DNA from: Naegleria gruberi
Taxonomy: Eukaryota
Assembly: GCA_000004985.1 (NCBI GenBank)
Contig: GG738851.1
DNA: 64,000 nt
Direction: 5' to 3' (one strand)
The notes below the pieces were generated by a model that worked only from the letters and a program-made list of their open reading frames with translations, was not told where the DNA came from and ran no database searches. Below, piece by piece: positions 41,673 to 49,050 of the stretch. The first letter of the stretch is position 1. Each line of letters begins with the position of its first letter. Both the position numbers and the translations under genes were made by a program.

Positions 41673-42191
41673 TTATTGTTGTGGTTGTTGAGCAGCAGCT
41701 TGCATTTGTTTCACTTCTTCTGGTGTAAATTCAGTTTCATAAACACCATTCCATTGTAAGAACTTCATCTTTGGTGGAATGTGGTCCTTTGGTATATCAC
41801 AGTCATATTCAAGAGTAATAGCTTCATCCTTTTCATATTTGACATCATCAGCGTCAATTTCCCAAGCTCTCCATTCGGCAACCTTTGGAATTAAATCAAG
41901 TTGATCTTCCAATAAAACAATAATTTCTTCAACTTGTCCTCTGTTCAAAGTGTCTTCAACAACTTGATAATCATCAGTTGATCTACAAACTTGACTAATA
42001 TATTTAAAGTTATTTTCGTTTGATGTTCTGAAAAAGGTTCCCTTTGGAATGTTGCATGAATCCAACTTGTTCAATCCGTCATCACAGAGCATTAAAATCA
42101 TTTCTCTCCATCTTGGTTGGGCAGGGAAACCGACGATACCAGTCATGGTCTTGACTCTTGGAGCCAATAATTTGGAGCAAGCACGAAACAT
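41673..42191 (-). CDS. NDUFA5: NADH dehydrogenase (ubiquinone) 1 alpha subcomplex subunit 5 (B13)-like
   Basis: 172 aa. TMTGIVGFPAQPRWREMILML..., then ...TLNRGQVEEIIVLLEDQLDLIPKVAEWRAWE, parallels the NDUFA5 core (TTGLVGL..., [34 protein letters not shown]). Confidence 0.6.
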   Translation of the reverse strand: MFRACSKLLAPRVKTMTGIVGFPAQPRWREMILMLCDDGLNKLDSCNIPKGTFFRTSNENNFKYISQVCRSTDDYQVVEDTLNRGQVEEIIVLLEDQLDLIPKVAEWRAWEIDADDVKYEKDEAITLEYDCDIPKDHIPPKMKFLQWNGVYETEFTPEEVKQMQAAAQQPQQ

Positions 42192-43923: not shown

Positions 43924-44910
43924 CTATCTCAATCTATCAACAAGTGTTTCAAAAATCAAATCCAAATTTAATCCCTGTTTGGCACTCGTCTCAAAATATT
44001 GCATATCATTGTCCATTGCAAATTCACGAGCAATCTTTTCTGAAATGACTCTCTTATCGGTGAGATCTACCTTATTTCCAACTAGAATGGAAACAACATT
44101 GGGTGCTGAGAACTTTTTCACTTCTCTATGAATTTCACATGTATTGAATTAATTGAATTTCATTTGAATTTTACACAAATTATTCATCAATATTTGAATA
44201 ATTTAACAGAATTGCAAATTATTTAATGACATTGAGGTTAATTTATCCAATTAAAATAGTAAATCTTACTTACTTGATCCATTTTTGAACATTTGCCAAT
44301 GCCCTATCATCAGTCAAATCAAAAACCACAATTACAGCAGGTATTCCTCTATAATATGAATTTGTAATCTGTTATTAAAATCAATTTTTCCAAATAAAAT
44401 TGCAAAATTCCAAAAATCCCCAAATTTTCATTCCACTTACAGTTCTATATCTTTCCTATTTGTAATTTCAATGAATTTATAATAAATAAATGGGGTTTAA
44501 AAAATACAAACCTGTCCAGCAGTATCCCATATTTGTATTGCTATTGTTTTATCTCCTTTTTTCAAATACTTTAGTTTAAAATCGACTCCGATAGTAGAAA
44601 CTAATCCTTCATCAAATTTTCCTTCTGTATATTTCAAAACAAGTGAACTTTTACCACAATTCGAATCTCCAATGACCAACATTTTGACCATTTCATCACT
44701 GAAATTTGTTAGAAAGCATGAAAACTAAGTCGAAACTTACTATTTTTGTTTCTCGTTGTTGTTCGAATCAAGTGTGATGATAGTATTATTGTGCACCGGA
44801 TTAGATAGAATTAAATCATTACTGGCCGAATAATTATTCGGACGAGAAACTTCACTGTTCGAAGAAGGGACATTAGTTTGGTTTCTTCCATGATGATTGC
44901 AATTTCCCAT
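43924..44910 (-). CDS. Rab/Ras-like small GTPase with an N-terminal MGxC (myristoylation/palmitoylation) extension and no C-terminal Cys. Model: complement(join(43924..44125, 44274..44368, 44512..44698, 44741..44910)).
   Basis: Four exons joined by GTAAGT/GTTTGT...AG introns of 42, 143 and 148 nt, all restoring frame: MGNCNHHGRNQTNVPSSNSEVSRP...NNNEKQKY|DEMVKMLVIGDSNCGKSSLV...IQIWDTAGQ|ITNSYYRGIPAVIVVFDLTDDRALANVQKWIK|EVKKFSAPNVVSILVGNKVDL...FETSAKQGLNLDLIFETLVDRLR*. G1 GDSNCGKS, G3 DTAGQ, G4 NKVD and G5 ETSAK are present. The ERF of switch II is absent. Confidence 0.6.
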
Positions 44911-45206: not shown

Positions 45207-45857
45207 TTACAAGGCAAGTGCCAAAATTAATGCAATCACACCAATAATTACCAAACCAGTTACCACTACAGCTGCAGAAATGTAAATCCATCTCTTTGCC
45301 ATGGCCCATTTGAGCTTTCTTCCTCCACGTTGGAAAATTTCTGCTTGTTCTCTCAGCGAATCAGTTTCAACAATTAATTCGTGCATCTTTTTCTGATTAT
45401 CCAAAATTTTATCAATGTTGATAATCATGACATTCTTGACTTCATCTACTGCATTTTGTAATTTGGAGATCTTGTCATTGTTTGTATCGTTGTGGAATTG
45501 CATGAGCTTGGTCAAGTTGACTTGTTTCTTGTGTTGATGATATTCTGTGGACATGGATTCAATCATATTCCAACAGATACGTTGCTTGCCATCTTGTGTA
45601 CTAATGACAACATAGAATAAATCACCAAGAGATGATCTTTCTCTCTTGATGAAGAAATTGAACATTTCATGAGTGAGAATGAGCTTGTCATAATTTGACA
45701 TATTTTCCTTATTGACCATTTTTGGAATGACTTTTTGTTCAATGACCATTCTCAAAGTCTTTTGGCAAGATGTTTCAGCAATGACTGAAATATTGACGGA
45801 ATTATCCATTGTACTCTTGATAATTCCTTCAGCAATCAATGCATAAGTAATTGACAT
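45207..45857 (-). CDS. Longin-domain R-SNARE (Sec22/VAMP7-like) with C-terminal TM anchor
   Basis: 216 aa. N-terminal longin-like fold, then the SNARE heptads KISKLQNAVDEVKNVMIINIDKILDNQKKMHELIVETDSLREQAEIFQRGGRKLK, then the TM segment WIYISAAVVVTGLVIIGVIALILALAL. Confidence 0.55.
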   Translation of the reverse strand: MSITYALIAEGIIKSTMDNSVNISVIAETSCQKTLRMVIEQKVIPKMVNKENMSNYDKLILTHEMFNFFIKRERSSLGDLFYVVISTQDGKQRICWNMIESMSTEYHQHKKQVNLTKLMQFHNDTNNDKISKLQNAVDEVKNVMIINIDKILDNQKKMHELIVETDSLREQAEIFQRGGRKLKWAMAKRWIYISAAVVVTGLVIIGVIALILALAL

Positions 45858-48093: not shown

Positions 48094-49050
48094 ATGAAAT
48101 TCTTCCCATTCCATTCTTCTTCTACTGGTGATGTATCATCGGATGTTGAGATCAAACAATTGTTACAACAAGCTGAGTTTTGTATGATCTCCGTACCTAG
48201 TATCGGAAATGTTGGACAATTGGCTATGGATTTTATGATTTCAACTTTTTATAATTCGAAATGTGCTCATATTAGTAAATTGGGATATTTAGAGACAGGA
48301 TTCTTGTTGCATTGTGTTGGTAATGATCCATATGTTCATCATAGAGATAATCATGTTGGAGAGGTGCACTCTGCTCTTGAAGTTTACTCTTTGCAATTCC
48401 ACACTCCTGGAAAACCAGAAGAAAAAGTTGGATCAAATATTGTTTTGATTCACTGTCGTTCTATTATAATTTATCCAACACTTTTTGTCAGAGATCTTAA
48501 TGAGTGGTTAGCTCAAGGAAATGATGATTACTTTTTGAAGAGTTTGCAAAATCTCATTATTTTGAGCTCTGCTAATGCAGGATTGCAAGATGATAGCTTT
48601 ATTCAATTTTTACAAGAAAAGCCACTTGAATTTGGTTTGGCAACTCTCTCATGTGATGTAAATGTAGTAGATGAAACAACCTTCCCACATGATCAATATC
48701 TTTCAAATATTCCAAAACTCGACAGACAAAAGTATCCACTATTTGTTTCAGGTGTAAATGCTAAATTAATGGAAAATCAAGAAACTTTTGGAAAGAATGG
48801 TGAAAGTAATGGACAAGTTAGAAAGTTGAACAGAGCTATTGTCTTTATGATTTGTAATGAAGGAGAAAACTCAATTCATGGTACTGCATTATGTAGAGTT
48901 GTGACTGGAGAAATTATTTTACCATTTATCAAGAACAATAATAAGGGAACACTTCCATTTGAAACATTGGACTCTATTGAATGGAAGATTCCACACAGTT
49001 GGAGACATTTCTATGGTAATCCAATTTCTGATTTAAATTTGTACAATTAA
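48094..49050 (+). CDS. PSMG2: Proteasome assembly chaperone 2 (PAC2)
   Basis: FCMISVPSIGNVGQLAMDFMISTF matches the PSMG2 N-terminal motif (..VGNVGQLAMDLIIST). The C-terminal WKIPHSWRHFYGNPIS matches WKIPSSWRLLFG. Confidence 0.65.
   Translation: MKFFPFHSSSTGDVSSDVEIKQLLQQAEFCMISVPSIGNVGQLAMDFMISTFYNSKCAHISKLGYLETGFLLHCVGNDPYVHHRDNHVGEVHSALEVYSLQFHTPGKPEEKVGSNIVLIHCRSIIIYPTLFVRDLNEWLAQGNDDYFLKSLQNLIILSSANAGLQDDSFIQFLQEKPLEFGLATLSCDVNVVDETTFPHDQYLSNIPKLDRQKYPLFVSGVNAKLMENQETFGKNGESNGQVRKLNRAIVFMICNEGENSIHGTALCRVVTGEIILPFIKNNNKGTLPFETLDSIEWKIPHSWRHFYGNPISDLNLYN

What the first reader, a model, noticed from the sequence alone, without database searches (positions are those of the whole stretch)
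43924..44910. Small GTPase with N-terminal MGNC acylation motif, a 56-aa N-terminal extension, and no C-terminal prenylation Cys
The reconstructed 4-exon product starts MGNCNHH... (Gly2 for myristate, Cys4 for palmitate) and ends ...VDRLR with no CAAX/CC. So membrane attachment would be N-terminal, as in Arf or G-alpha, although the G-domain is Rab/Ras-like (GDSNCGKS, DTAGQ, NKVD, ETSAK). Switch II lacks the usual ERF. This is an unusual targeting solution for a Rab-like G domain.
Basis: partly seen in the sequence, partly recalled or inferred. Interest (0 to 1): 0.55.

Follow-up and report, generated by a model that had tools for sequence, protein, structure and literature searches.

The report
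Naegleria Rab GTPase with N-terminal lipid anchor
This is the Naegleria gruberi gene for RabX5, a Rab1-like trafficking switch that has lost the usual C-terminal lipid-attachment tail and instead carries a conserved MGNC motif on a floppy N-terminal extension; the arrangement is already known from plant ARA6 and malaria Rab5b, so it is a further example, not a new principle.

Summary
The gene is real and sits at the stated coordinates on the minus strand. It has five exons, not four. A 15-nt micro-exon (ERYRT) and the first 21 nt of the next exon (ITNSYYR) were missed, so switch II is complete (DTAGQERYRTITNSYYRG). The claim that it "lacks ERF" is an exon-calling artefact.

The 222-aa product is identical to the manually corrected model of N. 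gruberi XP_002681187.1 in Herman et al. 2021. Its N. fowleri ortholog is named RabX5 there.

Confirmed features, all conserved in N. lovaniensis, N. fowleri and Willaertia magna:
- an MGNC start (MGNFC in Willaertia);
- an N-terminal extension of 53-76 aa (56 aa here), predicted disordered in the N. lovaniensis ortholog;
- a protein that ends at the end of helix alpha5, with no tail and no Cys.

The G domain is Rab1-like (about 47-50% identity), not Rab5-like.

The most likely mechanism is N-terminal lipid anchoring on Cys4, probably with myristate on Gly2. This would replace prenylation and make the protein independent of REP/GDI. One caveat: residue 6 (His; Pro in two orthologs) violates the published NMT consensus, so myristoylation is unproven.

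Functional analogues are known (ARA6/RabF1, Plasmodium Rab5b). Similar unnamed Rab1-like proteins turned up in amoebozoan transcriptomes. Verdict: new member of a known kind, moderate interest.

The parts
43924..44910 (-). Whole coding region of N. gruberi RabX5 (XP_002681187.1, corrected model): 5 exons, 222 codons plus a TAG stop.
   Evidence: Exon reconstruction and translation. The product is identical to Herman et al. 2021 Table S8.
44741..44910 (-). Exon 1 (170 nt). It encodes the N-terminal extension and is absent from the RefSeq/JGI model, which starts at Met60.
   Evidence: This is the first in-frame ATG after a stop 37 codons upstream. There are 296 nt to the upstream gene, and the donor is GTAAGT. 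The split Tyr57 codon restores the Rab-typical K-Y-D, also seen in W. magna.
44899..44910 (-). Codons for M1-G2-N3-C4, the putative N-terminal lipidation motif (Gly2 myristate?, Cys4 S-acyl).
   Evidence: Invariant in N. gruberi, N. lovaniensis, N. fowleri and, as MGNFC, in W. magna. The codons differ synonymously between species (GGA/GGC, TGC/TGT).
44743..44898 (-). Low-complexity Asn/Ser-rich linker (residues 5-56), proposed to replace the C-terminal hypervariable region.
   Evidence: Composition. The region is unalignable between orthologs apart from N13 and K56. The equivalent region of the N. lovaniensis ortholog has pLDDT 40-49 and no secondary structure.
44512..44698 (-). Exon 2. It encodes beta1, the P-loop GDSNCGKS (44647-44670), switch I (STIGVDF) and DTAGQ (44512-44526).
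44441..44455 (-). Exon 3, a 15-nt micro-exon encoding ERYRT (switch II).
   Evidence: Flanked by aaatAG| and |GTAAGT. A micro-exon ending in ...ERYRT is also present in N. lovaniensis (L001 6549-6572) and W. magna (L002 6566-6589).
44274..44368 (-). Exon 4. It encodes ITNSYYRGIPAVIVVFDLTDDRALANVQKWIK (the rest of switch II, RabF4/F5 and alpha3).
   Evidence: The intron positions before ITNSYY and after KWI(K/N) are conserved in the orthologs.
43924..44125 (-). Exon 5. It encodes NKVD (44065-44076), ETSAK (43978-43992) and helix alpha5 ending ...LVDRLR, followed directly by TAG (43924-43926). There is no hypervariable tail and no Cys.
   Evidence: Ortholog models stop within 2 residues of the same point. 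In the model of the N. lovaniensis ortholog, alpha5 runs to the penultimate residue.

Best explanation
The locus encodes RabX5, a Rab-family GTPase restricted to vahlkampfiid heteroloboseans and derived from a Rab1-like ancestor. Its GTP/GDP switch machinery is intact: P-loop, switch I Thr, DTAGQ with the catalytic Gln, NKxD and ETSAK.

The whole C-terminal hypervariable region, with its geranylgeranylated cysteines, has been deleted. A disordered N-terminal extension of 53-76 residues (56 here), beginning MGNC, has taken over its role.

Proposed mechanism (inferred, not shown):
1. After Met removal, the N-terminus is lipidated: S-acylation of Cys4, probably primed by N-myristoylation of Gly2.
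2. The lipid tethers the G domain to a membrane through the flexible linker.
3. In the Ras fold, the start of beta1 and the end of alpha5 both lie on the side away from the switch regions. Moving the tether from the C- to the N-terminus therefore keeps the effector face pointing away from the membrane.
4. With no prenyl group, REP, RabGGTase and GDI cannot act on the protein. Membrane residence would be set by acylation and deacylation rather than by GDI extraction, while GTP/GDP cycling still governs effector binding.
5. By analogy with engineered MGNC peptides and with ARA6, the target is more likely the plasma membrane or an endocytic compartment than the ER-Golgi step served by canonical Rab1.
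For: Shown:
- The gene model is identical to an independent manual curation.
- The protein is a Rab and is closest to Rab1. Pfam Ras scores 183.7 bits against 58.1 for Arf. Rab1B scores 175.6 bits, about 50% identity, against 144.7 for Rab5A.
- All G motifs and Rab-family motifs are present.
- The only cysteines are Cys4 and the P-loop Cys71, and the protein ends at the end of alpha5.
- M1-G2-N3 plus a Cys at position 4 or 5 are invariant in four species. Only 2 other extension positions are invariant, and the motif codons differ synonymously.
- The five-exon structure and partial synteny (NDUFA5 and PAC2 neighbours) are conserved.
- In the ortholog model the extension is disordered (pLDDT 40-49) and the G domain is confident, with most of it above pLDDT 90.

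By analogy from the literature:
- ARA6 needs Gly2 and Cys3 for membrane binding and lacks prenylation.
- PfRab5b has the same architecture.
- An engineered MGNC heptapeptide is myristoylated and palmitoylated and goes to the plasma membrane in mouse, human and fly cells.
- About 30 other Rab1-like proteins from amoebae have an MG-C start, an extension and no C-terminal Cys, and 29 of 30 fit a myristoylation pattern.
Against: - No lipidation or localisation data exist for this protein.
- Residue 6 violates the published NMT motif, which requires [ACGST] there. It is His in N. gruberi and Pro in N. lovaniensis and N. fowleri; N. fowleri also has Pro7.
- In G-alpha-o, Ser6 to Arg, Asn, Phe or Val gave cytosolic protein.
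- I could not run any NMT or palmitoylation predictor, and I could not verify an NMT gene in Naegleria.
- No transcript evidence for N. gruberi exon 1 was available. Support for it comes from gene models and conservation only.
- The predicted plasma-membrane or endocytic destination rests on animal-cell data for a peptide that keeps Ser6.
Confidence: 0.6

Rival explanations
1. RabX5 is S-acylated on Cys4 only and is not myristoylated. Initial membrane affinity would come from neighbouring hydrophobic or basic residues, as in N-terminally palmitoylated proteins that lack myristate.
For: Residue 6 fails the NMT motif in three of four species, and Ser6 substitutions inactivate a model substrate. 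N. lovaniensis and N. fowleri have Leu5 plus a Lys/Arg cluster right after the Cys (MGNCLPFNKRR, MGNCLPPRKR). The paralog RabX6 starts MCCGG with no Gly2 at all, yet also lacks C-terminal Cys.
Against: If only the Cys mattered, Gly2 and Asn3 would be expected to drift as the rest of the extension has done. They are invariant in all four species. Willaertia fits the NMT motif fully.
Confidence: 0.2
2. RabX5 is a soluble, non-lipidated Rab-like GTPase, comparable to IFT27/RabL4-type proteins that lack prenylation. It would be recruited by protein partners, and the MGNC conservation would have another cause.
For: Non-prenylated Rab-like proteins exist; for example, RabL4 has no prenylation site. 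The NMT motif is not met. No experimental data exist.
Against: This offers no alternative reason for the invariance of M-G-N-(x)-C at the extreme N-terminus of an otherwise free-drifting disordered extension in four species. The same architecture recurs in about 30 unrelated Rab1-like proteins with good myristoylation motifs. The extension is about the right length and character to replace the lost hypervariable tether.
Confidence: 0.12
3. The architecture is a gene-model artefact. The true transcript would have another 5' exon or a further 3' exon encoding a CC/CAAX end, or the locus would be a decaying pseudogene.
For: The RefSeq/JGI model differs, at 163 aa starting at Met60. No RNA evidence was accessible here. 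Herman et al. note pseudogenisation in some Naegleria Rab-like clades.
Against: An independent manual curation gives the identical 222-aa protein and does not flag it as a pseudogene. Start and stop positions agree in four species. ATG 44910 is the first ATG after an in-frame stop, and only 296 nt separate it from the upstream gene. The TAG follows the last alpha5 codon directly, and no downstream frame shows a plausible Cys-ending exon. All G motifs are intact across five exons.
Confidence: 0.05

Closest known systems
ARA6 / RabF1 (plants and charophyte algae)
   Same: A Rab G domain with a Gly2 plus Cys N-terminal acylation motif on an N-terminal extension, and no C-terminal prenylation cysteines. 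Gly2 and Cys3 are required for membrane binding (summarised).
   Different: ARA6 is a Rab5-group paralog with the motif MGC (Cys3). RabX5 is Rab1-like (175.6 bits to Rab1B against 144.7 to Rab5A) and has Cys4. Its extension is longer (56 aa), and residue 6 does not fit the NMT motif. This is a functional analogue, not a family member.
Plasmodium / apicomplexan Rab5b
   Same: [quoted passage not shown]
   Different: It is Rab5-related, from a different supergroup, and is shown experimentally to be essential and ER-proximal. Nothing is known experimentally for RabX5.
Canonical Rab1 / Ypt1
   Same: It is the best sequence match: about 47-50% identity over the G domain, the same Rab-family motifs and the YD motif before beta1.
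   Different: Canonical Rab1 has a C-terminal tail of about 30 aa ending in CC and no N-terminal extension. Naegleria and Willaertia keep a separate canonical Rab1 (XP_002673902.1; P0081). RabX5 is listed as a divergent lineage-specific paralog.
Unnamed MG-C-type Rab1 paralogs of Amoebozoa (Arcella, Difflugia, Flabellula, Nolandella, Trichosphaerium, plus many metatranscriptome sequences)
   Same: Identical architecture: an MGC, MGNC or MGxxC start, a 30-45 aa extension, and a protein ending just after alpha5 (...KMAxxIKEKLE) with no Cys.
   Different: They are much closer to canonical Rab1 (75-78% identity), and 29 of 30 fit the myristoylation pattern. RabX5 does not group with them: 0.3% of NJ bootstraps, and lower HMM scores than against canonical Rab1. 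An independent origin is likely.
Naegleria RabX6 (XP_002679007.1)
   Same: A Naegleria Rab-like protein with an N-terminal Cys motif (MCCGG), a long N-terminal extension and no C-terminal Cys.
   Different: Only 38% identical to RabX5, and each is closer to canonical Rab1. The two are sister in only 3.7% of bootstraps. RabX6 has no Gly2.
Dual-acylation SH4-type motifs of G-alpha and Src-family proteins (MGC.../engineered MGNC)
   Same: Gly2 plus a nearby Cys at the extreme N-terminus. An engineered MGNC heptapeptide is myristoylated and palmitoylated and targets the plasma membrane.
   Different: Those substrates keep Ser, Thr, Ala, Gly or Cys at position 6. N. gruberi RabX5 has His6.

Membership tests
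Rab family (Ras superfamily small GTPases) | Ras-type G domain with G1-G5 nucleotide-binding motifs | tested here: met
   Pfam PF00071 scores E = 2.4e-54 over residues 62-221. GDSNCGKS, T92, DTAGQ, NKVD and ETSAK were located. The model of the ortholog has a confident G domain, mostly above pLDDT 90.
Rab family (Ras superfamily small GTPases) | Rab-family (RabF) motifs: IGVDF, KLQIW-type, RFRxIT-type, YYRG, and the LVYD-type strand | tested here: met
   Present as IGVDF, AIQIW, RYRTIT, YYRG and VVFDLT, aligned to Rab1. The motif definitions come from my own knowledge of Pereira-Leal and Seabra.
Rab family (Ras superfamily small GTPases) | C-terminal hypervariable region ending in prenylatable Cys (CC, CXC or CAAX) | tested here: not met
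   The protein ends ...LVDRLR*. Its only cysteines are C4 and C71. The orthologs also lack the tail.
Rab1 / Ypt1 orthogroup | Groups with canonical Rab1 as the species' ortholog | tested here: not met
   Rab1 is the best match, but at only about 47-50% identity. A separate canonical Rab1 exists in these organisms. The RabX5 clade is 99-100% monophyletic with no supported sister. Herman et al. list it as a divergent lineage-specific Rab.
ARA6/RabF1 and Rab5b-type N-acylated Rabs | Gly2 plus an adjacent Cys, an N-terminal extension and no C-terminal Cys | tested here: met
   MGNC start, 56-aa extension and no C-terminal Cys.
ARA6/RabF1 and Rab5b-type N-acylated Rabs | Rab5-group G domain | tested here: not met
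   Rab1A/B score 166-176 bits. Rab3, Rab8, Rab10 and Rab35 score 146-165 bits. Rab5A scores 144-145 bits.
ARA6/RabF1 and Rab5b-type N-acylated Rabs | Demonstrated myristoylation or palmitoylation needed for membrane binding | not testable with these tools
   This requires labelling or mutant localisation experiments.
N-myristoyltransferase substrates | Motif M-G-[^DEFRWY]-X-[^DEKR]-[ACGST]-[KR] (Castrec et al. 2018, as quoted in PMC9018777) | tested here: not met
   In MGNCNHH, positions 2-5 are acceptable and His6 is outside [ACGST]. N. lovaniensis and N. fowleri have Pro6. W. magna has Ser6 and fits.
Arf family (N-myristoylated GTPases) | Arf-type G domain with an N-terminal amphipathic helix | tested here: not met
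   Pfam Arf scores 58 bits against 184 for Ras/Rab. In the ortholog model the N-terminal extension has no helix and is disordered.
Amoebozoan MG-C-type Rab1 paralogs (unnamed group seen here) | Phylogenetic grouping with that clade | tested here: not met
   They group in 0.3% of 300 NJ bootstraps. HMM scores are 174-190 bits against that group, compared with 208-228 bits against canonical Rab1. Only NJ was used, so resolution is limited.

The most novel reading that the evidence does not exclude
RabX5 is a truly N-terminally lipidated, REP/GDI-independent, Rab1-derived GTPase that arose independently of ARA6 and Rab5b. Together with Naegleria RabX6 (MCCGG...) and the unnamed MG-C-type Rab1 paralogs of Amoebozoa, it would show that moving the lipid anchor and its flexible tether from the C- to the N-terminus is a recurrent and so far undescribed route of Rab1 neofunctionalisation in amoeboid protists. 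If RabX5 is myristoylated despite His or Pro at residue 6, Naegleria NMT would also have an atypical substrate pocket.
Probability: 0.4. Interest if true: 0.5.

Novelty: new member of a known kind. Interest (0 to 1): 0.35.

Why it matters
Rabs are normally delivered to membranes by REP and retrieved by GDI through their C-terminal prenyl groups. A Rab that anchors by its N-terminus escapes that cycle, so it must be regulated differently.

Until now the described cases (ARA6, Rab5b) were Rab5 relatives. A Rab1-derived case in Heterolobosea, plus look-alikes in Amoebozoa, would show the solution is convergent and not tied to one Rab subfamily.

Two practical points:
- The RefSeq model XP_002681187.1 is truncated and hides the motif.
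- The clade occurs in the pathogen N. fowleri but has no detectable counterpart outside vahlkampfiid amoebae.

The mechanism is unproven and the concept is already established, so the impact is moderate.

Tried and rejected
1. The four-exon model and the 'missing ERF' were rejected. A five-exon model with a micro-exon restores switch II.

I modelled the N. lovaniensis ortholog instead.

3. I considered that RabX5 might be orthologous to the amoebozoan MG-C-type Rab1 paralogs, because they share GKSS..TF.. and VQKW residues. NJ bootstraps and HMM scores do not support this.

4. I considered RabX6 as a sister paralog, which would imply a single anchor relocation. It was rejected at 38% identity and 3.7% bootstrap.

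5. An Arf-like reading was rejected.

6. I looked for a hidden 3' exon with Cys or an upstream start. Nothing plausible was found.

7. Literature searches for a described N-acylated Rab1-type protein found none in the held library. Elias et al. 2012 (PMC3383260) is not held, so a prior mention there cannot be excluded.

8. I looked for evidence of NMT or DHHC enzymes in Naegleria in Herman et al.'s supplements and by paper search. Nothing usable was found.

9. A profile search and an exhaustive search of 1.84 billion representatives found no further clade members. The higher-scoring hits were multi-domain, tandem Rab predictions.

Full report
**What is in the sequence**

The window is AT-rich (about 33% G+C) and comes from Naegleria gruberi. 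The annotated protein P0001, 'rab family small GTPase [Naegleria gruberi]', is 100% identical to part of the product.

I read the minus strand between 45100 and 43700 and assembled exons with canonical AG/GT boundaries. This gave a five-exon coding sequence of 669 nt, with introns of 42, 56, 72 and 148 nt:

| Exon | Coordinates |
|---|---|
| 1 | 44910-44741 |
| 2 | 44698-44512 |
| 3 | 44455-44441 |
| 4 | 44368-44274 |
| 5 | 43924-44125 (high-to-low: 44125-43924) |

The product has 222 residues: MGNCNHHGRNQTNVPSSNSEVSRPNNYSASNDLILSNPVHNNTIITLDSNNNEKQK-YDEMVKMLVIGDSNCGKSS...DTAGQERYRTITNSYYRG...NKVD...ETSAK...LVDRLR*. Coordinates of all motifs were checked by translation.

**Independent confirmation of the model**

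- Herman et al. 2021 (BMC Biol 19:142, PMC8296547) manually re-annotated the Naegleria Ras superfamily. Their Table S8 gives a corrected sequence for XP_002681187.1 that matches my reconstruction at 222 of 222 residues.
- The RefSeq/JGI model still in the databases (P0001, 163 aa) starts at the internal Met60 and lacks exon 1.
- ATG 44910 is the first in-frame ATG after a stop 37 codons upstream. Only 296 nt separate it from the stop of the upstream gene.
- The Tyr57 codon, split by intron 1, restores the K-Y-D that precedes beta1 in Rab1-type proteins and in the W. magna ortholog.

Correct:
- the coordinates;
- the MGNC start;
- the 56-residue extension;
- the four G motifs quoted;
- the end ...VDRLR with no cysteine. 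The only cysteines are Cys4 and the P-loop Cys71.

Wrong:
- the exon count;
- the statement that switch II lacks ERF.

A 15-nt micro-exon (ERYRT) and the first 21 nt of exon 4 (ITNSYYR) were missed. The micro-exon is not an ad hoc rescue. It is in the database protein. A micro-exon ending in ...ERYRT is present in the N. lovaniensis and Willaertia magna genes, and the following two intron positions are conserved.

**What kind of protein it is**

- Pfam places it in Ras/Rab (PF00071, 183.7 bits). Arf scores far lower, at 58.1 bits.
- Against solved structures, the best matches are Rab1B and Rab1A (about 166-176 bits, roughly 50% identity over residues 55-219). Next come Ypt1, Rab3, Rab8, Rab10 and Rab35. 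Rab5A scores about 144 bits.
- All nucleotide-binding motifs, the catalytic Gln119 and the Rab-family motifs are present. It should be a working GTPase switch.
- It is not the organism's Rab1. A separate canonical Rab1 with a CC tail exists (XP_002673902.1; W. magna P0081).

**Distribution and orthologs**

Orthologs:

| Species | Protein | N-terminus | C-terminus | Source |
|---|---|---|---|---|
| N. lovaniensis | P0003, 242 aa | MGNCLPFNK... | ...DRVLLG | |
| N. fowleri | RabX5 | MGNCLPPRKR... | ...ERVLKG | |
| Willaertia magna | P0005, 219 aa | MGNFCSNHNHHH... | ...VERVI | |

- NDUFA5 and PAC2 genes lie near the gene in both N. gruberi and N. lovaniensis.
- A profile search of 5.8 billion clusters and an exhaustive HMMER search of 1.84 billion representatives found no further members. 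Clade members score 337-428 bits and the next single-domain proteins 211-225 bits.

**Membrane-anchor question**

Across the three-species alignment, the only invariant positions in the extension are M1, G2, N3, C4, N13 and K56. N. fowleri keeps MGNC as well. The motif codons differ synonymously between species, so the constraint acts on the protein.

The rest of the extension is Asn/Ser/Thr-rich and variable in length (53-76 residues). In the AlphaFold model of the N. lovaniensis ortholog it has no secondary structure and pLDDT of 40-49. In that model the G domain is confident, and helix alpha5 runs to the penultimate residue.

The hypervariable tail has therefore been deleted outright, and a disordered tether now sits at the other terminus. 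From the known Ras-fold topology, the start of beta1 and the end of alpha5 both point away from the nucleotide and switch face. The tether swap should then preserve orientation on a membrane. This last point is inference.

**Caveat on myristoylation**

The NMT recognition motif of Castrec et al., as quoted by Solis et al. 2022, is M-G-[^DEFRWY]-X-[^DEKR]-[ACGST]-[KR]. N. gruberi has His at position 6, and N. lovaniensis and N. fowleri have Pro. Only Willaertia (Ser6) fits.

In G-alpha-o, changing Ser6 to Arg, Asn, Phe or Val made the peptide cytosolic. On the other side, an engineered MGNC heptapeptide (with Ser6) is both myristoylated and palmitoylated, and goes mainly to the plasma membrane and endocytic membranes in mouse, human and Drosophila cells.

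The invariance of Gly2-Asn3 is hard to explain unless NMT or a similar N-terminal enzyme reads them. I therefore hold N-terminal lipidation as likely (about 0.6 overall). Myristoylation specifically is unproven.

**Comparison with what is known**

N-terminally acylated, non-prenylated Rabs are established. Plant and charophyte ARA6/RabF1 needs Gly2 and Cys3 for membrane binding. [quoted passage not shown] A review sentence in Zahonova et al. 2018 describes exactly this class as a Rab5-related paralog.

RabX5 works like these proteins but is not one of them, because its G domain is Rab1-like. The supplementary text of Herman et al. discusses Naegleria Rab-like expansions but does not comment on the lipidation of RabX5. 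My searches of the held literature found no description of an N-acylated Rab1-type protein. Elias et al. 2012 is not held.

**Related findings made on the way**

Among the 200 closest database proteins, about 30 share the same architecture: an MGC, MGNC or MGxxC start, a 30-45-residue extension, and an end just after alpha5 (typically ...KMAxxIKEKLE) with no cysteine.

- The named ones come from transcriptomes of Amoebozoa: Arcella, Difflugia, Flabellula, Nolandella and Trichosphaerium.
- They are 75-78% identical to canonical Rab1, and none carries a descriptive name.
- RabX5 does not group with them: 0.3% of 300 NJ bootstraps, and lower HMM scores than against canonical Rab1.
- RabX5 also does not group with Naegleria RabX6, which starts MCCGG and also lacks a C-terminal Cys (38% identity, 3.7% bootstrap).

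Several independent C-to-N anchor relocations in Rab1-like paralogs of amoeboid protists are thus plausible. Only NJ trees were possible here, so this stays tentative.

**Verdict**

The gene and its corrected sequence are already published as a lineage-specific Rab, and the targeting principle is known from ARA6 and Rab5b.

What is new is modest. This is a Rab1-derived, heterolobosean example with an atypical position 6, and it comes with a hint of a wider convergent pattern. Interest 0.35; novelty: new member of a known kind.

Noticed in passing
Database proteins P0013, P0030, P0038, P0041, P0043, P0046, P0078, P0136, P0138, P0140, P0147-P0149, P0159, P0160, P0165, P0171, P0173, P0180, P0185 and others (not in the window): A large unnamed group of Rab1 paralogs from Amoebozoa (Arcella, Difflugia, Flabellula, Nolandella, Trichosphaerium) and soil or water metatranscriptomes. 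They have an MGC, MGNC or MGxxC start, a 30-45 aa N-terminal extension and no C-terminal tail or Cys (they end ...KMAxxIKEKLE). They are 75-78% identical to canonical Rab1, and 29 of 30 fit a myristoylation pattern.
   Followed up: partly
N. gruberi XP_002679007.1 / N. fowleri RabX6 (Herman et al. 2021 Table S8; not in the window): A second Naegleria Rab-like protein that starts MCCGG, has a long N-terminal extension and has no C-terminal Cys. It is only 38% identical to RabX5 and is not its sister in NJ trees.
   Followed up: partly
window 44441-44526 (-), L001 6430-6650, L002 6505-6650: The intron before the micro-exon sits 9 nt further 3' in N. gruberi. Its micro-exon is the 15-nt ERYRT, against the 24-nt AGQERYRT in N. 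lovaniensis and W. magna. This is an apparent intron-boundary shift between close relatives.
   Followed up: partly
window 44512-44698 (-) versus RefSeq XP_002681187.1 (P0001): The public RefSeq/JGI protein model is truncated. It has 163 aa, starts at internal Met60, and loses exon 1 and therefore the MGNC motif. The corrected version exists only in a paper supplement.
   Followed up: yes
window 45207-45857 (-): The gene immediately upstream on the same strand is an intronless 216-aa ORF with a Synaptobrevin (R-SNARE) domain and a C-terminal transmembrane segment (Pfam PF00957, E = 5.8e-18). A trafficking SNARE therefore sits next to a trafficking Rab. It is not a neighbour in N. lovaniensis.
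   Followed up: partly
window 41673-42191 (-) and 48094-49050 (+); L001 3044-3565 and 4757-5698: NDUFA5-like and PAC2-family genes flank the Rab gene in both N. gruberi and N. lovaniensis, although order and orientation differ. This is partial synteny that supports orthology.
   Followed up: partly
window 44647-44670 (-): The P-loop is unusual: GDSNCGKS in N. gruberi and GEANSGKS in N. lovaniensis and N. fowleri, with Asn at the position equivalent to Ras Gly13. Willaertia keeps GESGVGKT. The effect on nucleotide exchange or GAP sensitivity is unknown.
   Followed up: no
Database hits P0121-P0130, P0206-P0223 and others (not in the window): The top-scoring hits of the profile searches are 300-2300-aa proteins with two to six Rab domains, from Rotaria, maize, Brassica and others. 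These are probably fused gene models of tandem Rab genes rather than real multi-Rab proteins.
   Followed up: no
Database protein P0362 (NCBI: uncharacterized protein LOC126326081 [Schistocerca gregaria]): An MG-C-type amoebozoan-like Rab1 paralog is annotated in a locust genome assembly, on a 206-kb contig. It may be contamination by an amoeba.
   Followed up: no
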